From IMG/VR virus record IMGVR_UViG_3300010167_000005, positions 1 through 40,050 of that record: a stretch of 40,050 nt of DNA. The stretch is one strand, 5' to 3'. The stretch comes from a virus. Positions 5,574 through 40,020 of the stretch are shown piece after piece. Numbering within the stretch: position 1 is the stretch's first letter; each line of letters opens with the position of its first letter. Position numbers and translations under genes: made by a program. The notes under the pieces are model-generated. The model was not told where the DNA came from and ran no database searches. It saw nothing but the letters and a program-made list of their open reading frames with translations.

Positions 5574-6269
5574 ATGCCAATTGATAAGATCGTCATAACA
5601 CTCGATCAGGACGAGTTTGTACCCGTTATTACGGGTAAATACCCGTTCGTCTTTCTCAGACGTGTGCCATACGATATGTTGCAAGGAGAGAAGTATGTCG
5701 TTGATATCGCCACACCGATTAAGGGCGGAGGGAGTGGGATGATTGACGGTTTTTTCCAAACTCACGATATAATACACTTAAGGAGTACTGATGAGATACA
5801 CTTGCTCTTTAACGAGCACTGGACAGATTATCATAGAGGGTATAATCATCTTAAATACGATATATCGTTGAGAGACCAGGAGCGCATACAGCGCTGGAAA
5901 GGTGCCTACGCTTTGCCAGTACATTACCCATATCACTCTATCAATATGGATGGCAGTATACAACCTGGCTTGAGTGATTTAAGCACATACGGCATAAAAT
6001 CGTTACCTATTAGAGGGATGTACGCATACGTAGAGGAGTTATCTTCCAACGGACAGAGATTAACTCCTGGCAGAATCAGAAGAGGGCCAAATTGTCCGTA
6101 TTGTATGGGTAGCGGGCAGGGTAGGAGAGATAACGATAACGATAAAGATAAACTGCCGATCAAATGCAACGTATGCGATGGCAGAGGCAGGGTTACAGAT
6201 AAGGCGAAGAGATATATCAAGTGGCTGGAGAGTGAGGCAAAAGATCAAAAAGATATACTTAAGTATTGA
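5574..6269 (+). CDS. Hypothetical protein with C-terminal DnaJ-type CxxCxGxG zinc finger
   Basis: CPYCMGSGQG ... CNVCDGRGRV, separated by a DNDNDKDK low-complexity linker. Confidence 0.6.
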   Translation: MPIDKIVITLDQDEFVPVITGKYPFVFLRRVPYDMLQGEKYVVDIATPIKGGGSGMIDGFFQTHDIIHLRSTDEIHLLFNEHWTDYHRGYNHLKYDISLRDQERIQRWKGAYALPVHYPYHSINMDGSIQPGLSDLSTYGIKSLPIRGMYAYVEELSSNGQRLTPGRIRRGPNCPYCMGSGQGRRDNDNDKDKLPIKCNVCDGRGRVTDKAKRYIKWLESEAKDQKDILKY

Positions 6270-26439: not shown

Positions 26440-26511
26440 TTTTGCCAACCTCCATAGTTGATAGATATAGTATACAACTTAAGTATATAAATATTACTAT
26501 TAGAACTTTAA
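26440..26511 (-). promoter_or_regulatory. Promoter-leader cassette copy P5 (leftward)
   Basis: The reverse complement of 26484-26511 is TTAAAGTTCTAATAGTAATATTTATATA. The leader is caactatggaggttggcaaaaATG. Confidence 0.65.
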
Positions 26512-26898: not shown

Positions 26899-26906
26899 TT
26901 TATATA
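26899..26906 (+). promoter_or_regulatory. Candidate TATA box for the rightward replication operon (probable leaderless first gene)
   Basis: TTTATATA starts 29 nt upstream of the ATG at 26928. No Shine-Dalgarno site lies between them. Confidence 0.45.
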
Positions 26907-26927: not shown

Positions 26928-27314
26928 ATGTACTTGCGGCTATGGACGGAAGCGTATACGAGCGTTGAGGAGTTCAACTTCGACCTGGCTGATCGGATGA
27001 AATGCTATATGGCGATGGTTGATATAGCGTTTGACACAGAGTATTTCGAGCAACGGTTGAATATGCTATCCGCTAAGTTTGACTGGTCGGCAGTAGGTAC
27101 GTTTGAGAGATATTGGTTGACAGTGAAGAAATACTTCTTTGAGATTGGCGGAGCAGCGATATTGAGAAAGATATTCAAGGGTACGGTTGACGATAAAGAT
27201 ATGCGGAAGGAGTTTGAGAAAAGAATAGGGTATGAGAATTTATCTTCTGCTTTAGACGAATTAGATTGCTCAGAGATAACAAGAGAAGAGTACAGGGAGT
27301 TGAACAAGGTATGA
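26928..27314 (+). CDS. Hypothetical protein (128 aa)
   Basis: First ORF of the rightward unit. Confidence 0.6.
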   Translation: MYLRLWTEAYTSVEEFNFDLADRMKCYMAMVDIAFDTEYFEQRLNMLSAKFDWSAVGTFERYWLTVKKYFFEIGGAAILRKIFKGTVDDKDMRKEFEKRIGYENLSSALDELDCSEITREEYRELNKV

Positions 27315-27472
27315 GAGGCAAAACTGAAATAATGTTCTCTGCATACGCAGATCGAAACCTCTACGCTGAATTATGCAAAGAAGCGATAGAGCGGGGCGTG
27401 AATCGTTCCATAATAATAGACGAAATGCTTGCGGAGAGATATCGTGCTAAAATTAATGCAACATCAGACTAA
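27311..27472 (+). CDS. Ribbon-helix-helix (CopG/Arc-like) DNA-binding protein (53 aa)
   Basis: ATGA-coupled start. IMFSAYADRNLYAELCKEAIERGVNRSIIIDEMLAERY fits the RHH pattern of a beta strand followed by two helices. Confidence 0.6.
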   Translation: MRGKTEIMFSAYADRNLYAELCKEAIERGVNRSIIIDEMLAERYRAKINATSD

Positions 27473-28808
27473 AACGGTCAAACTATCAGATCATGTAGAG
27501 CAGCACGCTCTTCTATGGACGATGGGTACGGGCAAAACTATCGCTACTTGGAGCATATTAGCAAATCTATTGCATCAAGGTAAGATAAAGAACGGGTTAA
27601 TCGTCTGTCCAATCCAGGTAATAGGGGCGTGGGAAGATGATCGTAAGCGGTTTGGCGAGAAAACTCAAGAATTGTTATCCGCAATAAAAATCATAAATTA
27701 TGAAAAACTCCATCGCCGAAAAGAGGCTTATGCCGCTGATTGGGATGCTATTGTAGTAGACGAGAGCCACATGATATCGAATAGAAAATCTCTCCGTTTC
27801 AAAACGTTGGGGATAATGGTACGGAAGGAGCAGTACCGCTTCATATTATCTGGCACGCCGATAGGTAATGCTCGAATGGAAGACTACTTCTCTCAATTTA
27901 AGTTTTTGTTGGGAGAGGAGTTTCCTTTCAAATCCTATAAATCATTTTTAGACGCATACTTTTCATACGATTTAAGTGAGAGTAGAGCCACGGGAGCGAG
28001 ATTTTATGACAGAGTTTATTGCAATAGAATTGATGAGTTATTACGCTGGATAGCGCCATACTCCTCTCGATATGATAAGTCCGTATTATCTGATTTATTG
28101 GAACCGTTGCCACCAACTGTTCACAAGGTTGAGTTGAGTGACAAAAACTTAGCGATTTACAAGCAGTTAAAGAAGAGCAAGGTAATAATATCTGATGATG
28201 GCTCCATAGTAGCAGATCGTGCGCTAACCTTGCTCATACGGTTGCGCCAGTTATCTTCACATATATTCTCAGCCGAAGAAGGGTACGTGGAGATAATCAG
28301 AGAAAAGGACAAGTTAACGCCTAAAATACAGGCGTTAGCGGACATATTAAGAAGTAAAAATATTATTGATGATGATAATATCTCAACTAAGCAAGGTAGC
28401 AAAATCGTGATATTTGTCGACTGGGTGGAGAGTATGGAGCAGATAACACGCTTCTTAAGATCGGCTGGCGTGAAATATGAGCAGATGGGCAATGGCGTGA
28501 CAGGGCATGAGCATTGGCAAAACTTCCAGGCGGATGATAACATTAAGGTTTTTGTTGGTAACTATCGCTCCATATCTCTCGGCGTGCAGTTATTTTCAGC
28601 AGATACTGCCATCTTCTTCGAACCGACGCTATCATCCCAGCAGGATACGCAGGCAAGATCAAGAATACATCGAAAGGGGCAGAAGGGGATTTGCAGTTAT
28701 ATTTACCTTATAGCAAAGGGTACAGTGGAAGAGGAGATATACAATAGACTGAAACATTTTGAAGATTTTTTTAATAAAATGTTCCTAAATTACCTTAAGT
28801 TGGAATAG
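27444..28808 (+). CDS. SNF2-family (SF2) DNA helicase / translocase
   Basis: Motifs MGTGKT (motif I), VVDESH (motif II), LSGTP (motif III) and a C-terminal QDTQARSRIHRKGQ (motif VI). The likely start is GTG 27444, 7 nt after GGAG. TTG 27429 and ATG 27456 are alternatives. Confidence 0.85.
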   Translation: MLKLMQHQTKTVKLSDHVEQHALLWTMGTGKTIATWSILANLLHQGKIKNGLIVCPIQVIGAWEDDRKRFGEKTQELLSAIKIINYEKLHRRKEAYAADWDAIVVDESHMISNRKSLRFKTLGIMVRKEQYRFILSGTPIGNARMEDYFSQFKFLLGEEFPFKSYKSFLDAYFSYDLSESRATGARFYDRVYCNRIDELLRWIAPYSSRYDKSVLSDLLEPLPPTVHKVELSDKNLAIYKQLKKSKVIISDDGSIVADRALTLLIRLRQLSSHIFSAEEGYVEIIREKDKLTPKIQALADILRSKNIIDDDNISTKQGSKIVIFVDWVESMEQITRFLRSAGVKYEQMGNGVTGHEHWQNFQADDNIKVFVGNYRSISLGVQLFSADTAIFFEPTLSSQQDTQARSRIHRKGQKGICSYIYLIAKGTVEEEIYNRLKHFEDFFNKMFLNYLKLE

Positions 28809-28856
28809 TAATATATTTATATAGAGATATTAATATATCAGACAGAGGTTACAAAA
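28795..28856 (+). promoter_or_regulatory. Promoter-leader cassette copy P4 (divergent copy)
   Basis: TTAAGTTGGAATAGTAATATATTTATATA lies at 28795-28823 and overlaps the YLKLE-stop of the SNF2 gene. The leader ends GAGGTTACAAAAATG. Confidence 0.55.
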
Positions 28857-29666
28857 ATGAACGAAGGAAAAACGCAGATGTCGCCGTATTTCCCACAAAT
28901 ACCAAAAGGCGGGATTATTGCGATATCGACATCGAAAGGGACGAAGCAATATGTGACAAAAGAGGGAATGTACTCTCTCGCTTTCACAGTAGGACAGAAA
29001 ATGCCGTATCGTATCGAATACGATCTATGCGAAAGAGAGATAGACGGTCATAGAGTTCTCATGTGCAAGGGTAGGCTGTACAAGACCGAATTATCGCAAG
29101 AAAAAAGTGCAGCGATGAATCTGCTGATGAATGAGAATGTTCTTAAAAACGCTCCACTTGTCGATATGTTAATGAGCATATTGGAAAAGCCAGACTGTGA
29201 AGATATCGCTGTTAAGCCGATGCCGATAGCACCAAAAGGAACGGTAGTTGACCCGAAAGAGATAGAGGCGCTGTACAAGAGGACAATAACAAACTGCAAG
29301 ATGAGAGTATTGTCCGAGTTTGTCGGAGCAGGGTATGCGATAGTATCTGACATGACAGATGAAGACGTTGAAGACGCATCGCCAGAAAGACAAATGGCTG
29401 CCGTTGAAGAAGGACTCAAGAAGTTCGAAGAGATGGATAAAAAGGAAGTGGCGTTGGAAACGAAGGCTGATTATATCCGCGCCATAAGTGAGATATGCAT
29501 CAGAAACCTCGGGTCAAATGACATCAAGGTTGCATACTTCAAAGACAAGGAGATAACTCGGAACAGCCAGTTGACAGACGATCAGGCAAAAGAACTCTAC
29601 GAACAGATCACAAAAAGTATAGGCCAAACGTGTAGCGCAACAGAAGAAACGGCAACAGAGGAATAA
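28857..29666 (+). CDS. Hypothetical protein (269 aa); recombination-module position
   Basis: ORF behind P4 and immediately upstream of the Cas4-like nuclease. No motif recognised, so a single-strand annealing role is only a positional guess. Confidence 0.55.
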   Translation: MNEGKTQMSPYFPQIPKGGIIAISTSKGTKQYVTKEGMYSLAFTVGQKMPYRIEYDLCEREIDGHRVLMCKGRLYKTELSQEKSAAMNLLMNENVLKNAPLVDMLMSILEKPDCEDIAVKPMPIAPKGTVVDPKEIEALYKRTITNCKMRVLSEFVGAGYAIVSDMTDEDVEDASPERQMAAVEEGLKKFEEMDKKEVALETKADYIRAISEICIRNLGSNDIKVAYFKDKEITRNSQLTDDQAKELYEQITKSIGQTCSATEETATEE

Positions 29667-29668
29667 GC

Positions 29669-30703
29669 ATGCCTGAGTACCATTACTCCGCTTTGCAGAC
29701 GTACGCAACGTGTCCACGGCAGGCGTATTACCGATATCGGAAAAGAATACAGCCTGCTCAAACTCCGCTTGCGCTGATAATGGGGATTGATATACACGAA
29801 GTGATAGCGGAGATGTTCCGCAATCCGCATGATGATGACAATAAAGCAAGGGTTGACGCAAAGATAGCGGAGATACAGTCTCACTACCCGGACAGCGATG
29901 AGATAATGAAGGTTGGATGGACGGAATACACTCGTGCAGAGTTAAGAGAAATGTTAGAGGTAACATTGGAACGATTCTACGAGACAAGACGGAAGCAGAT
30001 ACTCGATAACTATGATGTTATCGACGTAGAGAAGGACTTCCAGTTCGAGCATAATGGCGACATATATGGCGGGACTATCGACCTGGTAATAAGGCGAAAG
30101 ATGGACGGTAAACTATGCTTGCTGGATTGGAAGTCGATATCAAAGCAGATACAAGAAGGGTATCTGGAGTTGAACACGCAGAAATATATGTACGCTGTAG
30201 CGTGCTCCGTTCTGTATGGCGAGTATCCGTCAACATTCTACGTTGGCGGTGTTCTCAAACGCAAGATCAGATATCCAACGGTATTGAAGAACGGGACGAT
30301 ATCCTGCTCAGATTCTACACTCAAGGACTGCACATATGACTCGTTTATGTCAGTAATACGCTCGAACGAGTTAAGTGAAGAGCCTTATGCTGAGATATTG
30401 GCGAAACTGAAAGAGAAAGATTCTTACGATATCGTGAATCTGTTTCCGCTGGAGCATTTGGACTTGACGGAGAAGATGATAATCAACGGATGGGATAGAA
30501 TTGTGCAACTCAAGAGGTTGTGGCAGTTCAGTGTCGAAAGCGATGCCTGGCCCAAATGTGACGGCATGTCATGCTCCATGTGCAAAAACACATATCAAAA
30601 GTTGTGCGTAGCAGAGGAGATGGGAGCAGATATTGAAGAAGTGCTGTTGGACGATTATGTTGTCCGTGCCCCGAACGATCGTGCGGAGGCATGGGACCTA
30701 TAA
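29669..30703 (+). CDS. Cas4/RecB-like PD-(D/E)XK exonuclease with Fe-S Cys cluster
   Basis: N-terminal YATCPRQAYYRY. Nuclease core GTIDLVIRR...LLDWKS. C-terminal Cys cluster CDGMSCSMC...C. Confidence 0.75.
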   Translation: MPEYHYSALQTYATCPRQAYYRYRKRIQPAQTPLALIMGIDIHEVIAEMFRNPHDDDNKARVDAKIAEIQSHYPDSDEIMKVGWTEYTRAELREMLEVTLERFYETRRKQILDNYDVIDVEKDFQFEHNGDIYGGTIDLVIRRKMDGKLCLLDWKSISKQIQEGYLELNTQKYMYAVACSVLYGEYPSTFYVGGVLKRKIRYPTVLKNGTISCSDSTLKDCTYDSFMSVIRSNELSEEPYAEILAKLKEKDSYDIVNLFPLEHLDLTEKMIINGWDRIVQLKRLWQFSVESDAWPKCDGMSCSMCKNTYQKLCVAEEMGADIEEVLLDDYVVRAPNDRAEAWDL

Positions 30704-30747
30704 AAACATTTTTTAAAAAACTTTAAATAATTGAAGGAGAGAGAACA

Positions 30748-31380
30748 ATGGGAATAAACCTAACAAATGAGCAAAGAGCGGCGATCAAAAACAGTCCGGA
30801 TACCGGCGATGATTCGTCAATGCCGTACCCGTCATTAGGAACGCATAAGTTTGTGATAAGCAAAGCAGACGTAAAGCACGGTGACTATGCAGAGTTTCTG
30901 TCGCTAACAATCGTGTGCAAGTGCGTCGACGAGCCGGAAACAAGAGCGATGGCGATAACCTTCCGCAATGACGAAAAATCGGTCATTGATATGGGGCACT
31001 TCTACGCACGTCACGCATTGGGCAAGCCGTACGAAGACGAACCGATAGAAGAGACCGATTTACTCGGCGTGGAGATCATGGGCAAAGTGTACCAAAACCC
31101 TGGCAAAAACAGAGAAGGAGAGACGGTTCTGTATACCAACCTGTCAAAGTGGACATGGGTCCCGTCAGCAGATGCGGTGAAAGAAGTTCCGAAGCCAGCA
31201 GTTGAGGTCAAGAAGGAACCGCCGAAGGCAGCAGTGCCAACAGCAAAAGTTCCGCCAAAAACAAAACTGCCTGACCCTGCAACAAAACCTGCCGTTGCCG
31301 TAACGAAGGAAAAAGTTGAGGAAGCGAAGGACCCAACAGCACTGTCCGACGACGAGTTGGACGACCTACTCAACTCGTGA
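30748..31380 (+). CDS. Single-stranded DNA-binding protein candidate
   Basis: The globular N-terminal domain is followed by a Pro/Lys/Ala-rich linker and an acidic tail DDELDDLLNS, which is SSB-like architecture. AAGGAGAG Shine-Dalgarno site. Confidence 0.45.
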   Translation: MGINLTNEQRAAIKNSPDTGDDSSMPYPSLGTHKFVISKADVKHGDYAEFLSLTIVCKCVDEPETRAMAITFRNDEKSVIDMGHFYARHALGKPYEDEPIEETDLLGVEIMGKVYQNPGKNREGETVLYTNLSKWTWVPSADAVKEVPKPAVEVKKEPPKAAVPTAKVPPKTKLPDPATKPAVAVTKEKVEEAKDPTALSDDELDDLLNS

Positions 31381-31384
31381 TAAG

Positions 31385-31738
31385 ATGGACTTCCCTAAGC
31401 AGGAGAACGACAAACCACTTAAACTCATTCCTTATGAGTCAGATATACGCAAAAGATGCGACAATCTGATGAAAAAAAGGGGTGCGTATATCTGTCCTGT
31501 CAATCAGGACGAAAGAGGTTCGTCGGGCGCTCCGGACAGAGTGTACTGCTACAAGGGAATGTTTATCGCCGTTGAGTATAAGAGAAGCGCGAGCGAAAAG
31601 GCATCAAGACTGCAACTGCACCATAAGGACATGATAAGATCAGCGGGTGGCAAATGGTATCTGATATGGAGTAGCGAGCAGTTAGAATTGGAAATGCACA
31701 TATTAGAAGGGACGATCAATGCCGAAAAGAAAAAATGA
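31385..31738 (+). CDS. VRR-NUC / Holliday-junction-resolvase-like PD-(D/E)XK nuclease
   Basis: GAPDRVYCYKGMFIAVEYK gives the D...E.K catalytic pattern. The ATG at 31385 lies just after the upstream stop. Confidence 0.65.
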   Translation: MDFPKQENDKPLKLIPYESDIRKRCDNLMKKRGAYICPVNQDERGSSGAPDRVYCYKGMFIAVEYKRSASEKASRLQLHHKDMIRSAGGKWYLIWSSEQLELEMHILEGTINAEKKK

Positions 31739-33704
31739 CTTTACACAATTCAACGAATGCTTTAACGCATCCGATTCACGTTGCTACGTGATTTGCGATG
31801 CGAATAAGCAACGAAGGAATAGTGAAGTGTACAGTTATCAAGAAGCAAAGGAGTACCTTGAGAAAGGTGCTCTCATAGGGTTCATTTTACCGAAAAACAT
31901 TATCGTTATGGACTTTGATAAAACTGTTTCACAATACATCTTAAGTCTAACGAAATGGGATACAAACCCTAACGATATAACCCATTCCACAACGCCGAAC
32001 GGAATGCACGTTTGGCTTAAATCTGAAGAGGAATATGCTAGCGATATATTGACAATGTGCGGTATATCTGCACGTGTCTATCGTGAAGGGAAATATGTCA
32101 TTCTTCCTTATGGGTGTGATGATAGAGAATTTGTTCAGATGGACGCGTTGAAAGGGTATGATTTCTACCCGATGCTTAAACCGTTGGAATATACTTCGCG
32201 TCCTATATTTAACATACCTATTCCTACTGATGCCTATATAGACACGCTGAAAAGATATGTTCAGATATTAGAAAATGAAGGCTACGATCAGATAGGCATC
32301 GGTGTAGCGTTGACATGGATTAATGATAAGTTAGCTGAAGAGTCAATTCCTCGTGATGTGCTAATTAACAGTGTTATCGGCGATGCCAGAGATATCTCAT
32401 TCATGGACGGAAATAAATTCGACCATGTCAAAATGGTGGATTTTTTCATAGCCAGGTATCCGATGGTTGTCCGCAATGATAGAGTATTTGTCTATTTCGA
32501 CGGCGTGTACAAAGAAGCGGAGAAGTTTATCGAGAATATGACAGTGTACCATCATCCGCCGATTAAGATGGCACAGCGTAAAGAGGTTATCGAAACGTTG
32601 CGGATTAAGGTTAGATCAAAAGAAAAGAAGATGGCGATGAGTAAAAATGTTGTCAACTTTAAGAACGGTACCGTATCGGTTGAAAAATACGGTCAACTTA
32701 ACCCTCATCTACCTGAAACGGTTCTATTCCAGCAGATATCTGCCAATTTTGATTCACAATGGCAGTCTAAAGAGATGCTGGATGTAGACAGATATTTTAA
32801 AGATGTTACGCAAGGCGATGAGCAGTTAGAGAAATTCCTCTATCAATTAATCGGGTACTGCTTAATACCTAACCTGGTATGGGATAAGGCGTTTATCTTA
32901 TGGGGACCCACAGCGGATAACGGTAAGTCCACATTCCTCAAGGTTCTAACAGCAGTAGTAGGTAAAGATAATGTGTCATCGGTATCGTTAAAGCAGATAG
33001 TTGACGATAAGTTCTCACTGGTTAAGACGAATCACAAACTTGTCAATTTGCAAGGAGAGACGTCAACAGCATATTTAGAAGATATCGCTATTTTTAAACA
33101 AATTGTTACCGGAGACGATATTTTAGTGCAGGAGAAAAATCAGCCAGCGTTCATGATGACACCGAGTTGCAAACATATCTTTGCAACAAACGAGTTCCCG
33201 AAGATAAGGGATAAATCAAACGGATTTTATCGACGTGTTTTTGCTGTTGAGTTTAAGGCGAAATTTAGCGAGGAACAGAAGGCTAAATTCAGCATTGATA
33301 ATATCACGCACCAGCAGGCGCTGGACTATATCGCCAGTCGTGCCATATATGAGTATAGCGAAGTTGTGAGGACAAGGACCTGGGCCAAATCCGATGCTTC
33401 TGATATGCTCGTAAATCAGATCAAAATAACCTCATCAAGTGTTGCAGAGTTTTGGTCGAAAGAGATATTAGAAGGGGAGCACATAAACCGTCCGGAATTA
33501 TACACTCGCTATCAAGCCTTTTGCGATGCTGAGGCGGTGAAACATGTGACTGGAAAGAAATCTTTTTATAATGAGTTAAGATTATTTTATCCAGACGAGT
33601 ATAAAGAGTACGGTTCCAACGGGCAGATTTACATAGAAAAAGTTAAGAAGGAAGAAAAGAAACAAGAGGAAGAGAAAAATGAGGTTCTATACAAGCTCTT
33701 TTGA
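31719..33704 (+). CDS. Bifunctional primase-polymerase (prim-pol) + D5/P4-type SF3 helicase
   Basis: The N-terminal part has IVMDFDK (DxD) and TPNGMHVW (sGxH). The helicase part has Walker A WGPTADNGKST and a P4/D5-type C-terminal region. Confidence 0.85.
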   Translation: MPKRKNDFTQFNECFNASDSRCYVICDANKQRRNSEVYSYQEAKEYLEKGALIGFILPKNIIVMDFDKTVSQYILSLTKWDTNPNDITHSTTPNGMHVWLKSEEEYASDILTMCGISARVYREGKYVILPYGCDDREFVQMDALKGYDFYPMLKPLEYTSRPIFNIPIPTDAYIDTLKRYVQILENEGYDQIGIGVALTWINDKLAEESIPRDVLINSVIGDARDISFMDGNKFDHVKMVDFFIARYPMVVRNDRVFVYFDGVYKEAEKFIENMTVYHHPPIKMAQRKEVIETLRIKVRSKEKKMAMSKNVVNFKNGTVSVEKYGQLNPHLPETVLFQQISANFDSQWQSKEMLDVDRYFKDVTQGDEQLEKFLYQLIGYCLIPNLVWDKAFILWGPTADNGKSTFLKVLTAVVGKDNVSSVSLKQIVDDKFSLVKTNHKLVNLQGETSTAYLEDIAIFKQIVTGDDILVQEKNQPAFMMTPSCKHIFATNEFPKIRDKSNGFYRRVFAVEFKAKFSEEQKAKFSIDNITHQQALDYIASRAIYEYSEVVRTRTWAKSDASDMLVNQIKITSSSVAEFWSKEILEGEHINRPELYTRYQAFCDAEAVKHVTGKKSFYNELRLFYPDEYKEYGSNGQIYIEKVKKEEKKQEEEKNEVLYKLF

Positions 33705-34608
33705 CGCAATGACATGCCATGTCCACGGCGTCGTATTATCGCCGGTCCACTTAGAGAGTAATTTTGATGCAAGTAATTACAAAGTATTCATCGACAGCGG
33801 AGGGTTTACCGACGTTCATGCTCACAAAAGATTGACGTATCGAGAGGCGTTGGACAGACAGATAAAAATAGCAGGAAGATTAAACGCTACTCCGGAGATG
33901 CTGGCAGGGTACGACCTTATCTCTCCGCTATGCTTCCCATCGTCAACTCGCAAATTTAAATCGCCAGAAAACGATCATGCGATAGAAACGACAATCAAGG
34001 CAGCGGAGTGGTTTGATAAACATCGTGATGAGATGCTCGGTGCAAGTCCAATGTTCATTCTCCAGGGTGCATGGCCGAGTGATTTCATGCACTGTTTGGA
34101 ACACATCGTCCCTCTACTTGAAGAAGGAGATACTATCGGCTTCGGGTCGTCGGCGTCAAACAACGACAAAATAAAGCAGAGACTAAGAGAAATAACTGCT
34201 GGTACTTGCGCTAAACTGCAAGGCACAGCCTGCAATAAAGTTCATTATTTAGGGCTATCGCCAATCAACGATCTCTGCCAGTTTGACACATATTGCAGAC
34301 AGAGAGGGATTGACCCCTCATATGACACTTCATCGTATATCAGAAGGTGCGCTTTCGGAGACATCAGTGCACCGCCAGACTTCAACGAAACGGTTGATGC
34401 CTTGTCTAAGTTAGACAAGCAGAGAAGATGGACGTATTTTAATATATCCGTCGGTTCAGTGCAGGCGTTTTGGGACCATTGGAATTTTTATTTCGATGAC
34501 TTGAGTTTGGACGAATATAACTTTGAAGAATTTAAAACCAAGAATGACATCAAGTATGACGAGTTCATGGCTGGACAAAACGCTTTAGACAAATGGGTGA
34601 AAAAATGA
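33679..34608 (+). CDS. dpdA: DpdA-like DNA/tRNA-guanine transglycosylase family protein
   Basis: FIDSGGF matches the TGT catalytic DSGGF motif. HYLGLS ... YDTSSY matches the second TGT/DpdA motif block. Size is DpdA-like (309 aa). An alternative start is ATG 33709. Confidence 0.7.
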   Translation: MRFYTSSFDAMTCHVHGVVLSPVHLESNFDASNYKVFIDSGGFTDVHAHKRLTYREALDRQIKIAGRLNATPEMLAGYDLISPLCFPSSTRKFKSPENDHAIETTIKAAEWFDKHRDEMLGASPMFILQGAWPSDFMHCLEHIVPLLEEGDTIGFGSSASNNDKIKQRLREITAGTCAKLQGTACNKVHYLGLSPINDLCQFDTYCRQRGIDPSYDTSSYIRRCAFGDISAPPDFNETVDALSKLDKQRRWTYFNISVGSVQAFWDHWNFYFDDLSLDEYNFEEFKTKNDIKYDEFMAGQNALDKWVKK

Positions 34609-35339
34609 TAGATTTAGGTGTAGAGAAAAAATTAGGTTCGGACACCGTGAAGCACATCTATATTGGGTTGATGGTTATGGCTTTGCTCATTTCCAACATC
34701 ATCGCAATGAGGATGATTCACGTGGGTGAACTGTTTGGATTGGAGATATATGTCACGGGTGCGGTATTCACATACTTCATCTGCTTTTTGATGACAGATA
34801 TTCTCTCAGAGAAGTTTGGAAAGAAGGTTGCAAAGGATGCCATTAAGGCGGGTGTTGTAGCACAGTTGATAGCATTTGCGCTGATAATGATCGTCGTATT
34901 CGTCGTTCCGGTTGGACCGACTGACTGGGACGTTGATATGCTAGCGGCGTATAAGATGATATTCACTGTCAACGGATTCATAATAGCAGGAAGCATAACT
35001 GCTTTCTACATATCGCAGAATCTGGACGTGAAGATATTCCATGTGTTAAGGCATAAGTTCCGAGACAAGAAATGGGTCAGGTCATCGTCGACAATACTGT
35101 CACAGTTAGTTGACACGCTGATAATGACGTTCATAGCGTTCGTCATCCCGATGTGGCTCGGACTTGAAGGGTCGTTACCGTTCATCATATTGCTCGGCAT
35201 GCTGGCCGGAGAGTATATGCTCAAGGTTGCTTTGGCGGCGTTGGACACTCCGATATTCTACCTGCTAACAGGCGGTAGAAGAACGCAGGAAAACTTCGAC
35301 GATGCGAACAAACAGATAGAGGAGACAAAAAATGGCTAA
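34605..35339 (+). CDS. yhhQ: YhhQ/Vut-family queuosine-precursor (preQ0) transporter
   Basis: FTYFICFLMTDILSEKFGKKVAK and ISQNLDVKIFHVLRHKFRDKKWVRSSSTILSQLVDTLIMTFIAF align closely with E. coli YhhQ blocks. The protein is multi-pass. ATGA-coupled start (ATG 34593 is the alternative). Confidence 0.85.
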   Translation: MIDLGVEKKLGSDTVKHIYIGLMVMALLISNIIAMRMIHVGELFGLEIYVTGAVFTYFICFLMTDILSEKFGKKVAKDAIKAGVVAQLIAFALIMIVVFVVPVGPTDWDVDMLAAYKMIFTVNGFIIAGSITAFYISQNLDVKIFHVLRHKFRDKKWVRSSSTILSQLVDTLIMTFIAFVIPMWLGLEGSLPFIILLGMLAGEYMLKVALAALDTPIFYLLTGGRRTQENFDDANKQIEETKNG

Positions 35340-35724
35340 AAGTGAAGAAAGAACAGAGGAGAAAGTGACAAAGATCGGCGACGTAATGTACGCCGTTTCT
35401 TCTGAGCGTGTCACGTGTCCGTTCTGCAAGGGTACAGAGAAGTTGGACCGAACGATATTCATACCGGCGGTGTTGCAAGGCAACGTCAAATGTGTATGCA
35501 ATGGCGGGTGGTTCTTTGCTCCGTATCGTGTCGTTGAAGGGAAAGTCGCAGAGATAATCCTGCGTGAAACGGCAGAAGGAGTGCAGAAGAAATACGTCAT
35601 GGACTTCGGGCAAAGAAACGAGGAAAGAGATGAACGTCTGTATTCAAACAAAAAGGACGCCGAAGGATTGGCAGCGGAACTGAACGATCAGTATGACAAA
35701 CTCGAGGTGGTCCTTCGTGCGTAA
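35332..35724 (+). CDS. Hypothetical zinc-binding protein (130 aa)
   Basis: CPFC ... CVC Cys pairs. Confidence 0.55.
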   Translation: MAKSEERTEEKVTKIGDVMYAVSSERVTCPFCKGTEKLDRTIFIPAVLQGNVKCVCNGGWFFAPYRVVEGKVAEIILRETAEGVQKKYVMDFGQRNEERDERLYSNKKDAEGLAAELNDQYDKLEVVLRA

Positions 35725-35956
35725 AAGCATAGACGTTCGTTCGCTCAGCCTGACAAACGAGGAAAAAGATGACCTTCTCTCCCTTATCTATTTTCACAGA
35801 GCAGGTCCGGGTAGAGCGATAGTGCTCATACTTAACGATAGGGGCAAAACGTGTGAACAGATAGCGGATATCGTCGGCGTTGAGCGTTCAACGGTCTATG
35901 AATCTCGCAGAATAGGACGTAAGAGGAGAAGTGAAACAGATGAAGACAGCATTTGA
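35717..35956 (+). CDS. HTH DNA-binding protein (sigma-70 region-4 / LuxR-like)
   Basis: LTNEEKDDLLSLIY...GKTCEQIADIVGVERSTVYESRR. The GTG at 35717 lies 6 nt after GAGGTGG. The track ATG at 35693 overlaps the previous gene. Confidence 0.6.
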   Translation: MRKSIDVRSLSLTNEEKDDLLSLIYFHRAGPGRAIVLILNDRGKTCEQIADIVGVERSTVYESRRIGRKRRSETDEDSI

Positions 35957-36260
35957 GGACGTCATGGCGGTCAAACTGTCAGGCGAGCAGTTGAAGAGAG
36001 CGATGTTCGTTCAACAATTTACCAAATATGATATTGTTGACAGCATCGTTATTGCAACGCTCTACTGCGATTTCGGCGATGAAGTGCATCTCAAGACGTT
36101 GTCGAAAAGAATCAATATGCATGGCGAAGATGTTCGAGCAAAACTGAACGTTCTTCGGTCAAGGCTGGATAATCAGCAGACACTTGACGAAGGCGTGACG
36201 TATGGACAGCAGTTGTGCAAGGCGATGAATTGCAAGCCGTTTGACTTCAAGGATGTGTGA
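35931..36260 (+). CDS. Hypothetical protein (109 aa)
   Basis: ORF in the operon. Confidence 0.5.
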   Translation: MKQMKTAFEDVMAVKLSGEQLKRAMFVQQFTKYDIVDSIVIATLYCDFGDEVHLKTLSKRINMHGEDVRAKLNVLRSRLDNQQTLDEGVTYGQQLCKAMNCKPFDFKDV

Positions 36261-37063
36261 CCATGGCGGATACGACAGTATTGATAACCGGAAAGAACAA
36301 AATACTCAGAGAAGCGTTCACAATCGGCAGTATCGTCAGAACATCGCTCGACGCGATAAGAATGACGATAGAGGAAGATAAGATAGAACTGTTAGGACTG
36401 GATGCGGCGAAGGCGATCGTTATCGAATATGTCCTTGAGTCAGATACAGCAAAAGGATTGAAGATAACGTCAACAATCGGCGATTCTCCAGGCAAAGACC
36501 CTAACGGCGAAGTTATCCCTGGTAATGTGATGCAGATAGACCCGAGAGAGATACTTGAAGGTTTAAAGAAGGGCGATGCCAGCGATGATGCAAGCATATC
36601 TTTCGGCAAGGAGAACACGGTCGTCAAGACAGGAAGGATAACGAGGAAGTACAGAACAAAATCTGCAATTCTCATTCCGTCAGCGTGGAAAGTGCCAAAC
36701 TTACCGATGACAGCGGCGGCAGTGATGAAGAAGGAACTGTTCCAGTCCTTATTCCGTCCGTTGGACGATCTCGAGCAGATACGCGTCAAGTTCTCGCCGG
36801 AAGGGATAGATGTACGAGCGGAAGAAGAGCACATCATTAAAGGAGAGACGTATGTCAAGGTGGCAGAATGTAGCAAATTTGTTTCAAAAGAAACGTTTGA
36901 CGTTCTGTTCGGAACGGAGTACTTCGTCGGAATAGCGAATTATATCCCTTCAGATATCGTTGACGTGACCTTGAAGATGGCTGCTAACATGCCTGCGTAT
37001 GTGTTTTTCGGTTCTGTTCGCTGTATATTGGCACCGAGAATCGATGATCAGCCAATGGAGTGA
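36257..37063 (+). CDS. pcn: PCNA-type DNA sliding clamp
   Basis: The size is PCNA-like (268 aa). The N-terminal pattern ...IVRTSLDAIRMTIEEDKIELLGLDAAKAIVIEYVL parallels archaeal PCNA (LIDEAAFKVTEDGISMRAMDPSRVVLIDL). The C-terminal ...FGSVRCILAPRIDD parallels ...GRLTFLLAPRVEE. Confidence 0.75.
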   Translation: MTMADTTVLITGKNKILREAFTIGSIVRTSLDAIRMTIEEDKIELLGLDAAKAIVIEYVLESDTAKGLKITSTIGDSPGKDPNGEVIPGNVMQIDPREILEGLKKGDASDDASISFGKENTVVKTGRITRKYRTKSAILIPSAWKVPNLPMTAAAVMKKELFQSLFRPLDDLEQIRVKFSPEGIDVRAEEEHIIKGETYVKVAECSKFVSKETFDVLFGTEYFVGIANYIPSDIVDVTLKMAANMPAYVFFGSVRCILAPRIDDQPME

Positions 37064-37092
37064 TAAACATTTTACCATTTTTCTTTTTCATA

Positions 37093-37165
37093 TTAAAGTT
37101 AGAATAGTAATGTTTATATACAACTTAAGTATTACTACTATTACAACTATGGGAAGTGGTTAAAA
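37093..37165 (+). promoter_or_regulatory. Promoter-leader cassette copy P3
   Basis: TTAAAGTTAGAATAGTAATGTTTATATA lies at 37093-37120, preceded by oligo-T tracts. The leader is caactatgggaagtggttaaaaATG. Confidence 0.65.
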
Positions 37166-37589: not shown

Positions 37590-38240
37590 ATGTCTGAAAA
37601 GAGCGGCATGATGAGAGTGAACGGCATGATAAATGAAGTCGCTGATGCGATGATCGTGAAAATGTTCAAAGATTTTCCCGTCGGCAATGTTGGACTAACA
37701 TTTCACAGGCACAAGAAGGCTTATGGGTGTTTCTACGTTGATAAGAACTGGAAGATAGGCGAAGATGGCTTTCATGAGATAAACATCAGCGAGCACGCAA
37801 TCAGAGCAGGAAAGACACAGATGTTCTGCACCATTGCTCATGAGTTGGTTCACGCAGCCAATACGCAAATGGGGATAAAGGATACAGACAAAACCCTTCG
37901 CCGTCACAACAAGAAGTTTAAGGCAGGATTGGAGAAGGTTGGCATGAAAGCGTTCGACACTGGCGGTCCAGGAGGGTGGGACGACGTAGTCGAATGGTAT
38001 CCTGTCTTTGAGGAGATCGTTGCTGAGTTGAGCGATGATGCCAAATATGTCCTGGAAAATGTGGACGTATTGTTGCAGTTTAAGAGCGGCGGAAGTAACA
38101 CGCAAAACTTATCCGTTTTTATCTGTCCGAATTGCGGGCAGAAGGCAAGGGCAAAGCAGGGAGCAAAACTGATATGCGGGAACGACTGCTGCCTGCCTGA
38201 CGATACGGAAGGCATGGTAACAATGGAGTTGGTAGGGTGA
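37590..38240 (+). CDS. SprT-like zinc metalloprotease with C-terminal zinc ribbon
   Basis: HExxH motif within TIAHELVHAAN, followed by RRHNKKFK. Both are SprT-like. The C-terminal Cys pattern is CPNCGQ...CGNDCC. Confidence 0.7.
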   Translation: MSEKSGMMRVNGMINEVADAMIVKMFKDFPVGNVGLTFHRHKKAYGCFYVDKNWKIGEDGFHEINISEHAIRAGKTQMFCTIAHELVHAANTQMGIKDTDKTLRRHNKKFKAGLEKVGMKAFDTGGPGGWDDVVEWYPVFEEIVAELSDDAKYVLENVDVLLQFKSGGSNTQNLSVFICPNCGQKARAKQGAKLICGNDCCLPDDTEGMVTMELVG

Positions 38241-39554: not shown

Positions 39555-40020
39555 ATGACTAACTTAAGTGTGCATTTTTCATCCGATAGCGTTGAGCGGG
39601 CAACTCCGCAAGATATCTTTGACAAGTTGAATGAAGAGTTCGACTTTCAATTGGACGTTTGCGCTACCGATACAAATGCTAAGTGCGATATGTATTACAC
39701 AAAAGCAGAGAACGGATTGGAACAAGACTGGAGCGGTTATCGTTGCTGGATGAATCCTCCTTATGGACGTGAGATCGGCAAATGGGGTCAAAAAGGCAGC
39801 AGATGCCTTTGCTGATAACACACAGAAAGGGTTGTGTGTTTGCCTTGTGCCTTGCAGAACAGATACGCGCTGGTGGCAGGATGATGCTATGAGATGCACG
39901 GAGATCAGGCTGATAAAGGGACGATTAAGGTTTAATGATAAAGACGGCGCTCCATTTCCTTCTGCTTTACTGATATTTGGCACAAAAAAGATGCCGATCA
40001 TAAGAACGTATGAGGTATGA
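39555..40020 (+). pseudogene. dam: Phage-type Dam N6-adenine DNA methyltransferase, split by a 1-nt frameshift
   Basis: ORF 39555-39815 carries ATPQDIF...FDFQLDVCA...NPPYG. ORF 39763-40020 in the +1 frame carries the rest (VKKAADAF...LVPCRTDTRWW...GRLRF). Removing one G from GGGG at 39784-39787 restores ...GKWVKKAADAF... Confidence 0.8.

What the first reader, a model, noticed from the sequence alone, without database searches (positions are those of the whole stretch)
36257..37063. PCNA-type clamp plus archaeal-style expression signals point to an archaeal host
The 268-aa protein has archaeal/eukaryotic PCNA architecture, including the C-terminal LAPRIDD (Pyrococcus PCNA ends LAPRVEE). It is not a bacterial beta-clamp. 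Supporting signals:
- The repeated promoters carry an exact TTTATATA box, matching the archaeal TATA consensus TTTAWATA.
- Gene 26928 has such a box 29 nt upstream of its ATG and no Shine-Dalgarno site, which suggests a leaderless mRNA.
- Zinc-ribbon miniproteins are unusually common.
- The genome has a prim-pol/SF3 helicase, a Cas4-like nuclease and an Hjc/VRR-NUC-like resolvase.
- There is no peptidoglycan hydrolase or holin-like pair.
The host lineage cannot be named from sequence alone. If the inference is correct, this is a compact archaeal siphovirus-like genome with moderate AT-richness (judged by eye).
Basis: partly seen in the sequence, partly recalled or inferred. Interest (0 to 1): 0.6.

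Follow-up and report, generated by a model that had tools for sequence, protein, structure and literature searches.

The report
Divergent PCNA clamp in archaeal virus
The gene is a real but very divergent PCNA-type DNA sliding clamp in a complete 40-kb tailed virus, and the evidence points to an archaeal host, probably a methanogen; such viruses are already known to carry PCNA, so this is a new member of a familiar kind.

Summary
The ORF at 36257-37063 is real; its likely start is the ATG at 36263. It belongs to the PCNA family, but only profile methods show this. Pfam, PHROGs and a single-sequence PDB search find nothing. Evidence for PCNA:
- a full-length phmmer hit to a cellular archaeal PCNA (E 3.5e-4 against 1.84 billion proteins);
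- hhalign probability 96.7% (E 3.3e-10);
- KVPNL and LAPRI motifs in register;
- an AlphaFold model (pLDDT 88) whose top PDB matches are all PCNAs.
It is neither a three-domain beta-clamp nor a T4 gp45 clamp.

The archaeal-host reading also holds:
- A canonical PCNA query hits 22 of 50,697 phage records, all of them archaeal viruses.
- The portal and capsid proteins match only a Methanomicrobiales virus (vir524).
- A tail protein best matches a Methanosarcinales virus (vir515).
- Exact TTTATATA occurs 10 times against 2.3 expected, and all seven plus-strand copies lie between genes. vir515 shows the same pattern; two bacterial phages do not.

No CRISPR spacer or provirus link was found, so the host is not proven. 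Other agents in this scan had already called this genome a probable methanogen virus.

The parts
36263..37063 (+). PCNA-family sliding clamp gene. It gives 266 aa from the ATG at 36263; the ORF is also open from the GTG at 36257, giving 268 aa.
   Evidence: ORF. Full-length phmmer hit to canonical PCNA P0004, E 3.5e-4. hhalign against 33 cellular PCNAs: 96.7%, E 3.3e-10. AF2 model pLDDT 88, with archaeal PCNAs as top PDB folds, TM 0.74-0.84.
36250..36254 (+). Shine-Dalgarno-like AAGGA, 8 nt before the ATG at 36263
   Evidence: Sequence read.
36470..36526 (+). Codons for residues 72-90 (numbered from the GTG). This is a 17-19-residue insertion absent from cellular PCNAs and conserved in the one close homologue.
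   Evidence: Alignments.
37070..37089 (+). T-rich tract just after the clamp's stop codon, with no hairpin. It resembles an archaeal oligo-T terminator closing the replication operon.
   Evidence: Sequence. No intrinsic-terminator hit on the + strand here. Function is inferred.
37093..37120 (+). Copy of the repeated promoter cassette, ending in TTTATATA (37113-37120), for the next gene block
28796..28823 (+). Copy of the promoter cassette, with TTTATATA at 28816-28823, upstream of the gene run 28857-37063 that ends with the clamp
   Evidence: Operon membership is inferred from tight or overlapping gene spacing.
26899..26906 (+). TTTATATA box starting 29 nt before the ATG at 26928. It fits a leaderless transcript.
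31719..33704 (+). Primase-helicase (D5_N, DUF5906, Pox_D5). It is the only other replisome enzyme; no DNA polymerase gene was found in the genome.
   Evidence: ORF inventory.
34576..34599 (+). Codons for QNALDKWV, followed by KK and the stop. This is a canonical PIP-box-like motif at the extreme C-terminus of the DpdA-like enzyme. It is a lead only.
   Evidence: The control weakens its significance.

Best explanation
The gene encodes a highly divergent member of the archaeal/eukaryotic PCNA family. It is carried by a complete 40-kb, non-integrating, siphovirus-like member of Caudoviricetes that infects an archaeon, most likely a methanogen of the Methanomicrobia/Methanosarcinia type or a Thermoplasmatota relative.

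Shown here: family membership at profile level, the two-domain clamp fold, and conserved inter-domain-loop (KVPNL) and C-terminal (LAPRI) motifs that form the partner-binding pocket in known PCNAs.

Inferred: the protein forms a homotrimeric ring. The host's RFC clamp loader places it on primed viral DNA made by the virus's own primase-helicase. The ring then holds the host replicative polymerase (PolB or PolD) and the maturation enzymes on viral DNA, because the virus has no polymerase or loader of its own. The gene is the last in a replication operon that starts at an archaeal-type TATA promoter cassette and ends at an oligo-T tract.
For: PCNA family:
- phmmer against 1.84 billion representatives gives only 3 hits: a 56%-identical metagenomic homologue, one short local match to a 1990-aa protein (E 6.4e-05, residues 216-252) that was not followed up, and a full-length match (residues 18-264 to 13-245) to P0004, E 3.5e-4.
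- P0004 is a canonical PCNA with PCNA_N and PCNA_C domains. Its close relative P0006 sits beside gyrase, primase and PolB in an archaeal contig.
- Pairwise BLASTP: 26% identity over 267 columns, E 5e-13.
- hhalign of the 2-sequence profile against 33 cellular PCNAs: 96.7%, E 3.3e-10, 231 columns.
- The same 2-sequence profile ranks only PCNAs in the PDB, weakly (E 0.34 and 0.57).
- Residues invariant across all 35 aligned sequences include P147 of KVPNL and A259-P260-R261.
- AF2 model: pLDDT 88, pTM 0.81. All top 50 PDB matches are PCNAs, best TM 0.74-0.84. The best viral match is a haloarchaeal virus protein.
- pI 5.2. Basic residues K13, K15, R18, R97, K104, K105, K158, K159 and R167 fall in or beside the predicted inner helices.
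- The homologue's contig L002 has genes of similar sizes flanking the clamp.

Archaeal host:
- PCNA hits in the phage database are 22 of 22 archaeal viruses. This matches Kazlauskas et al. 2016, PMC4889955: at family level PCNA is found in archaeal and eukaryotic viruses and PolIII-beta only in bacteriophages, and stand-alone PCNA without a polymerase occurs.
- The portal (3e-13) and capsid protein (2e-5) hit only vir524, host Methanomicrobiales. Six collinear morphogenesis genes are shared, and vir524 also carries a PCNA with no polymerase annotated.
- The 494-aa tail protein best hits vir515, host Methanosarcinales, at 6e-31.
- TTTATATA is enriched about 4-fold and all 7 plus-strand copies are intergenic. 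In vir515 all 3 plus-strand copies are intergenic, two of them ahead of the structural and terminase gene blocks. Two bacterial phages have 0 intergenic copies.
- Sigma-70-like promoters and intrinsic terminators are not clearly above shuffle expectation. Promoters: 43 against 42.4 in one half, and 55 against 40.5 (sd 6.3) in the other. Terminators: 12 against 14.5, and 18 against 15.4. None coincides with the cassette.
- The nearest labelled TerL is from a Thermoplasmatota genome.
Against: - Pfam PCNA_N and PCNA_C do not hit the protein even at E 10, and single-sequence PDB and PHROG searches are empty.
- AF2 with only the two close sequences failed (pLDDT 31). The confident model therefore depends on an alignment made mostly of cellular PCNAs.
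- Fold alone does not separate PCNA from beta-clamp domains; BFVD lists both.
- Trimer formation, loading and partner binding were not tested.

Host:
- No CRISPR spacer or provirus match in 401 Thermoplasmatota genomes. Other archaeal phyla and bacteria could not be searched in the same way.
- TerL, primase-helicase and the nuclease/helicase module have bacterial-phage relatives at 25-33% identity.
- Links to vir524 and vir515 are distant (22-46% identity), and their hosts are database labels.
- The TerL neighbour sits on a long branch.
Confidence: 0.8

Rival explanations
1. The clamp is mainly a landing pad for the virus's own DNA-modifying enzymes, not a processivity factor for the host polymerase. 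It would tether the DpdA-like 7-deazaguanine transglycosylase, and perhaps the C5-methyltransferase-like protein and the 231-aa zinc-finger protein, to newly made viral DNA through C-terminal PIP-box tails.
For: - Three proteins end in Qxx[LIVM]xx[FYW] within their last 10 residues: DpdA-like (...GQNALDKWVKK), methyltransferase-like 90-770 (...RQVNLLKF) and 5574-6269 (...DQKDILKY).
- Residue shuffles expect 0.15 such proteins, P about 0.001.
- The DpdA tail fits the full 8-residue canonical form, follows a charged linker, and lies about 2 kb upstream in the same operon.
- Kazlauskas et al. note that the role of stand-alone viral PCNA is an open question.
Against: - A real bacterial phage proteome (Proteus phage, 80 ORFs) also has 3 such C-terminal motifs. 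The shuffle P-value therefore overstates the signal.
- The methanogen virus vir524, which also has a stand-alone PCNA, has none.
- No homologues of the DpdA-like protein could be fetched to test whether the tail is conserved.
Confidence: 0.12
2. The virus infects a bacterium, and the PCNA-like gene is a horizontally acquired or gp45-like clamp working with some unrecognised phage-encoded partner.
For: - TerL, the primase-helicase and the SNF2/Cas4/VRR-NUC module have many bacterial-phage relatives at 25-33% identity.
- Most genes have Shine-Dalgarno-like sites, 38 of 58.
- No direct host link was found.
Against: - No bacterial phage among 50,697 records carries a PCNA-family gene.
- No gp45 family hit.
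- No polymerase or clamp loader in the genome for such a clamp to serve.
- Portal, capsid and tail proteins match only or best methanogen viruses.
- TATA boxes are enriched and sigma-70 sites are not clearly so.
- Shine-Dalgarno sites are also normal in methanogens (general knowledge).
Confidence: 0.07

Closest known systems
Stand-alone PCNA genes of archaeal tailed viruses: HFTV1 gp63, HSTV-1, HHTV-1, CGphi46, phiCh1/phiH pcnA, and Caudoviricetes sp. vir524 pcn
   Same: - A PCNA-family clamp in a 30-60-kb tailed archaeal virus.
- In vir524 the clamp sits in a genome with no polymerase annotated and with related head genes.
- HFTV1 PCNA is expressed early and is presumed to serve viral DNA amplification (PMC12542753).
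- PCNA is shared among haloarchaeal tailed viruses (PMC3950731).
   Different: - The sequence is far more divergent. tblastn with this protein finds none of these viruses, and BLASTP against the vir524 clamp gives E 0.19.
- Pfam does not recognise it.
- It carries a conserved 17-19-residue insertion (residues 72-90) and lacks a short hairpin loop near the C-terminus.
- Only one close homologue exists in public data.
Cellular archaeal PCNA (for example Haloferax volcanii 3IFV, Thermococcus 5A6D, Thermoplasmata PCNAs such as P0004)
   Same: Two-domain fold, length, KVPNL inter-domain loop start, LAPRI C-terminal motif, acidic pI and basic inner helices.
   Different: About 25% identity. It is virus-encoded and stands alone, without neighbouring replication genes of cellular type.
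Bacterial beta-clamp (DnaN) and T4 gp45 clamps of bacteriophages
   Same: Same clamp superfold. Foldseek also lists beta-clamps at lower rank.
   Different: - Beta-clamps have three domains and about 370 aa.
- The only Pfam signal (16 bits, below the cut-off of 27) is equally present in a true PCNA.
- No gp45 family hit.
- gp45-type clamps always co-occur with their own polymerase (PMC4889955), and this genome has none.

Membership tests
PCNA (archaeal/eukaryotic sliding clamp) | Passes the curated Pfam models PCNA_N (PF00705) and PCNA_C (PF02747) | tested here: not met
   No hit even at E 10. PF00705 searched across the whole genome also gave nothing.
PCNA (archaeal/eukaryotic sliding clamp) | Significant full-length sequence or profile similarity to bona fide PCNAs | tested here: met
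   phmmer E 3.5e-4 against 1.84 billion proteins, full length. BLASTP E 5e-13. hhalign 96.7%, E 3.3e-10 over 231 columns.
PCNA (archaeal/eukaryotic sliding clamp) | Two topologically similar domains of about 120 aa joined by an inter-domain connecting loop | tested here: met
   AF2 model pLDDT 88. All top 50 PDB matches are PCNAs, TM up to 0.84. Caveat: the alignment used was mostly cellular PCNAs, and a 2-sequence run failed.
PCNA (archaeal/eukaryotic sliding clamp) | Conserved partner-pocket motifs: the inter-domain loop start (KVPNL) and the C-terminal LAPR[IV] motif | tested here: met
   P147 and A259-P260-R261 are invariant in 35 sequences. Motifs align in register.
PCNA (archaeal/eukaryotic sliding clamp) | Homotrimeric (or heterotrimeric) closed ring around DNA | not tested
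Basic residues on the predicted inner helices are consistent with a ring.
PCNA (archaeal/eukaryotic sliding clamp) | Loaded by RFC; binds PIP-box partners (polymerase, Fen1, ligase) | not testable with these tools
   Needs biochemistry. No RFC or polymerase gene is present in the virus.
Bacterial beta-clamp (DnaN) | Three clamp domains, about 360-380 aa, passing the DNA_pol3_beta_1/2/3 models | tested here: not met
   268 aa and two domains. Only DNA_pol3_beta_3 hits, at 16 bits against a cut-off of 27, and canonical PCNA P0004 gives the same weak hit.
T4 gp45-type clamp | Match to gp45 families; encoded with its own polymerase and clamp loader | tested here: not met
   No gp45 Pfam or PHROG hit. 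No polymerase or loader in the genome.
Archaeal tailed virus (Caudoviricetes with an archaeal host) | Archaeal-type promoters (TATA box TTTAWATA about 25 nt upstream of the transcription start) | tested here: met
   10 copies against 2.3 expected. All 7 plus-strand copies are intergenic. Transcription starts were not mapped.
Archaeal tailed virus (Caudoviricetes with an archaeal host) | Direct host link (CRISPR spacer, provirus, isolate) | tested here: inconclusive
   None in 401 Thermoplasmatota genomes.
Archaeal tailed virus (Caudoviricetes with an archaeal host) | Structural genes related to viruses with assigned archaeal hosts | tested here: met
   Portal and capsid protein match only vir524/Methanomicrobiales. 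The tail protein best matches vir515/Methanosarcinales. The relationships are distant.

The most novel reading that the evidence does not exclude
The stand-alone viral PCNA is a docking ring for the virus's DNA-modification enzymes. The DpdA-like guanine-exchange enzyme ends in a canonical PIP-box (QNALDKWV-KK), and two other proteins carry similar tails. 7-deazaguanine insertion and methylation would then be coupled to the replication fork, as DNMT1 is coupled to PCNA in eukaryotes.
Probability: 0.12. Interest if true: 0.6.

Novelty: new member of a known kind. Interest (0 to 1): 0.35.

Why it matters
- It gives a sound host-domain call for an uncultured virus. In the 50,697-record phage collection, PCNA-family genes occur only in archaeal viruses, which makes them a clean marker.
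- It adds a very divergent PCNA lineage that standard annotation misses. This could improve profile models and the detection of archaeal, especially methanogen, viruses in metagenomes.
- It is one more case of the unexplained stand-alone viral clamp without a polymerase.
- It does not reveal a new mechanism.

Tried and rejected
- Single-sequence searches (Pfam, PHROGs, PDB, phage tblastn) gave no usable hit.
- AF2 with only the window protein and its one close homologue gave an unusable model, pLDDT 31.
- Searches for close relatives found nothing in viral contigs with TerL, the DpdA-like protein or the clamp. They also found nothing in metagenome contigs or in genome contigs with TerL.
- The genome-contig scan with the clamp alignment returned only three cellular Thermoplasmata PCNAs.
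- The contig of the 61%-identical TerL homologue could not be fetched as DNA.
- Provirus search in 401 Thermoplasmatota genomes: TerL gave 7 genomes at 22-37% identity, but none shares further genes with the window. The portal gave nothing meaningful.
- DNA search for spacers in the same genomes: short hits at 27/28 to 35-nt length were inspected and none lies in a repeat array.
- Complex prediction of the clamp with the DpdA-like tail returned no verdict. It is neither support nor evidence against binding.
- The C-terminal PIP-motif enrichment looked significant against shuffles, but a real bacterial phage proteome showed the same count, so it is kept only as a lead.
- The TerL tree does not separate archaeal from bacterial labels (13 changes, shuffled mean 13.5). 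It carries little weight.
- The Nature Microbiology paper on methanogen viruses, which I recall as the probable source of vir524 and vir515, is not held in the library.
Full report
WHAT THE WINDOW IS. The 40,050-bp window is one complete IMG/VR virus record with a 123-bp direct terminal repeat. About 58 of 65-67 ORFs lie on the plus strand, and GC is about 44%.

Recognisable genes:
- small and large terminase, and a portal fused to a Mu-F-like domain;
- major capsid protein and a tape-measure-like protein;
- SNF2 helicase and a D5-type primase-helicase;
- Cas4-like PD-(D/E)XK exonuclease, a YhhQ/Vut_1 transporter and an SprT-like protein;
- a small endonuclease, phrog_93;
- several methyltransferases.

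No ORF has a polymerase, clamp-loader or integrase signature, and the only ORFs above 400 aa are accounted for. There are no tRNA genes.

THE OBSERVATION. The ORF at 36257-37063 exists as described and ends ...LAPRIDDQPME. The likely start is the ATG at 36263. An AAGGA site lies 8 nt upstream, the database gene call is 266 aa, and the homologue starts at the aligned residue. The stop is followed by a 20-nt T-rich tract and then by a copy of the repeated promoter cassette.

IS IT PCNA? Direct searches say nothing.
- Pfam gives only DNA_pol3_beta_3 at 16 bits, below its cut-off of 27.
- PHROGs, a single-sequence PDB search and tblastn against 50,697 phage records find nothing.

The exhaustive phmmer search of 1.84 billion representatives returned three hits:
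- P0002, 56% identical, on a 2.3-kb metagenome contig whose flanking genes have similar sizes;
- a short local match to a 1990-aa protein (E 6.4e-05, residues 216-252), which I did not follow up;
- P0004, matched over the full length at E 3.5e-4.

P0004 is a textbook PCNA with PCNA_N and PCNA_C domains. Its 89%-identical relative P0006 lies beside gyrase, TFIIS, both primase subunits and PolB on a 43.5-kb archaeal contig.

I kept the test non-circular by building a profile from the window protein and P0002 alone.
- Against the PDB it ranks only two chains, both PCNAs, but weakly: E 0.34 and 0.57.
- Against an alignment of 33 cellular PCNAs, hhalign gives 96.7% probability, E 3.3e-10, over 231 columns from end to end.
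- Pairwise BLASTP against P0004 gives E 5e-13.

The KVPNL start of the inter-domain loop and the C-terminal LAPR motif align in register and are invariant in all 35 sequences.

AlphaFold with the two close sequences failed (pLDDT 31). With the 35-row alignment it gave pLDDT 88 and pTM 0.81, with the expected alternation of helices and sheets in two domains. All top 50 PDB neighbours by Foldseek are PCNAs, led by Thermococcus, Haloferax and Archaeoglobus (TM 0.74-0.84). The best viral neighbour is a haloarchaeal virus protein. The model depends on the PCNA-rich alignment, so I treat it as consistent with the profile result, not independent of it.

The weak beta-clamp Pfam hit appears equally in P0004, so it says nothing for a beta-clamp. 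At 268 aa with two domains, the protein cannot be a three-domain DnaN. No gp45 family is hit.

Differences from cellular PCNAs:
- a 17-19-residue insertion (residues 72-90), well conserved in P0002;
- a missing short hairpin before the C-terminal strand.

HOST DOMAIN.

1. PCNA as a marker. A canonical PCNA used as a tblastn query against the phage collection hits 22 records, and every one is a virus of archaea: haloarchaeal viruses and vir524. No bacterial phage is hit. This agrees with Kazlauskas et al. 2016 (PMC4889955). They report that at family level PCNA and RFC occur in archaeal and eukaryotic viruses and PolIII-beta only in bacteriophages. They also report that cellular-type clamps are sometimes encoded without a polymerase.

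2. Structural genes. In the same collection the window's portal (E 3e-13) and capsid protein (E 2e-5) match one record only, BK063669.1, Caudoviricetes sp. vir524, host field Methanomicrobiales. Local tblastn shows six collinear morphogenesis genes shared with it. vir524 also carries a pcn gene with no polymerase annotated. The 494-aa protein after the tape measure best matches BK063672.1, vir515, host field Methanosarcinales (E 6e-31). The next hit is a Thermoanaerobacterium phage at 5e-6.

3. Expression signals. Exact TTTATATA occurs 10 times against 2.33 expected. All seven plus-strand copies lie in or at intergenic gaps, which total only about 2.4 kb. Five copies (four plus-strand, one minus-strand at 26484) sit in a repeated cassette about 56 nt before start codons, with a Shine-Dalgarno-bearing leader. 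One copy lies 29 nt before the ATG at 26928 with no ribosome site, as expected for a leaderless message.

Controls for the TATA signal:
- In vir515 (57% GC) all three plus-strand copies are intergenic, two of them ahead of the structural and terminase gene blocks.
- In a Proteus phage and an Idiomarinaceae phage there are 3 and 2 copies, none intergenic.
- Sigma-70-type sites and hairpin terminators are not clearly above shuffle expectation. Promoters: 43 against 42.4 in the first half and 55 against 40.5 (sd 6.3) in the second. Terminators: 12 against 14.5 and 18 against 15.4. None overlaps the cassette.

4. TerL. This is less informative. The best bacterial-phage and prophage relatives are 28-33% identical. 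Thermoplasmatota genomes contain TerL genes at 22-37% identity over partial alignments. In a quick tree the window clade joins one of them, but on a long branch, and the labels do not cluster overall.

WHAT DID NOT WORK FOR THE HOST. No close relatives were found in IMG/VR, metagenome contigs or GTDB genomes by pattern scans. The Thermoplasmatota proviruses share no further genes with the window. No short DNA hit lies in a CRISPR-like array. Only Thermoplasmatota could be sampled, because the only genome handles I could obtain came from the clamp scan. The host is therefore inferred to be archaeal and probably a methanogen, but it is not demonstrated.

- The primase-helicase, Cas4-like nuclease and VRR-NUC-like endonuclease are real. 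However, the same module (VRR nuclease, ATP-dependent helicase, Cas4-domain exonuclease, primase-helicase) is annotated in the bacterial Idiomarinaceae phage 1N2-2. It does not argue for an archaeal host.
- Zinc-ribbon-like proteins are somewhat more frequent here (6 of 65) and in vir524 (4 of 54) than in two bacterial phages (2 of 80 and 1 of 52). The sample is small.
- No peptidoglycan hydrolase or holin family was hit in the ORFs scanned, unlike phage 1N2-2 with its amidase, holin and Rz. Absence is weak evidence.

HOW IT PROBABLY WORKS. The virus makes its own primase-helicase but has no polymerase and no clamp loader. The conserved partner-pocket motifs suggest the clamp still binds PIP-type partners. 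The most economical reading has three steps. Host RFC loads a homotrimeric viral ring on primed viral DNA. The ring recruits the host polymerase and the Okazaki-fragment enzymes. This raises clamp supply or biases it toward viral templates early in infection. HFTV1's PCNA gene is likewise expressed early and is presumed to serve genome amplification (PMC12542753). All steps after fold and family are inference.

A MORE NOVEL LEAD. The DpdA-like enzyme encoded about 2 kb upstream ends in QNALDKWV-KK, a canonical PIP-box form at the extreme C-terminus. Two other proteins end in Qxx[LIVM]xx[FYW]. Residue shuffles expect 0.15 such proteins, P about 0.001. But the real proteome of a bacterial Proteus phage has three as well, and vir524 has none. 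The statistic therefore does not hold against a biological control. I keep it as a testable idea at about 12%.

COMPARISON AND NOVELTY. PCNA genes in 30-60-kb archaeal tailed viruses, often without a polymerase, are established (PMC3950731). This gene is a new and unusually divergent member, invisible to Pfam and with one close homologue in public data. It sits in a virus lineage only distantly tied to catalogued methanogen viruses. Other agents of this scan, working on other parts of the same genome, had already called it a probable methanogen or archaeal virus. My tests agree with that and add the database-wide PCNA and structural-gene evidence.

Noticed in passing
window 39555-40020: The Dam-type N6-adenine methyltransferase is split into two overlapping ORFs in different frames: 39555-39815 matches Dam profile positions 13-72 and 39763-40020 matches positions 76-125. 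This could be a frameshift, a sequencing error or programmed slippage.
   Followed up: no
window 33679-34608, 90-770, 5574-6269: Three proteins end in PIP-box-like Qxx[LIVM]xx[FYW] motifs (QNALDKWVKK, QVNLLKF, QKDILKY). The primase-helicase ends in NEVLYKLF. They are enriched against shuffles but not against a real bacterial phage proteome.
   Followed up: partly
window 28813-28840 vs G016:C27:2856-2883 (L036): A 27/28-nt match between the promoter-cassette region (ATATTTATATAGAGATATTAATATA...) and an intergenic, promoter-like stretch of a 1.7-Mb Thermoplasmatota genome. It is not in a CRISPR array and could be chance in AT-rich DNA or shared promoter architecture.
   Followed up: partly
window 36470-36526 (clamp residues 72-90): An insertion of 17-19 residues (STIGDSPGKDPNGEVIPGN) absent from cellular PCNAs. 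It is more conserved between the window and its one homologue than the rest of the protein. Its function is unknown.
   Followed up: partly
window 27429-33704 vs L028 (Idiomarinaceae phage 1N2-2) 26032-34202: The replication and recombination gene set (SNF2-type helicase, Cas4-domain exonuclease, VRR-type nuclease, primase-helicase) is also annotated in a bacterial siphophage. The module crosses the domain boundary while the clamp does not.
   Followed up: partly
L041 (vir515) 8517, 11674, 29338: In this Methanosarcinales-assigned virus (57% GC), all three plus-strand TTTATATA copies lie in intergenic gaps, two of them ahead of the structural and terminase gene blocks. It is a useful positive control for archaeal TATA boxes in viral genomes.
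   Followed up: yes
window 23440-23479 vs G157:C50:27077-27212 (L031): The Gly/His/Cys-rich 345-aa protein gene matches a tandemly repeated GGC/CCG-rich coding repeat in a Thermoplasmatota genome at 88% over 40 nt, twice, 96 nt apart. This is low-complexity similarity, not a spacer.
   Followed up: partly
window 37590-38240: An SprT-like metalloprotease with a C-terminal zinc ribbon lies two small genes downstream of the clamp. From memory, eukaryotic SPRTN is a PCNA-associated SprT protease. No test was made.
   Followed up: no
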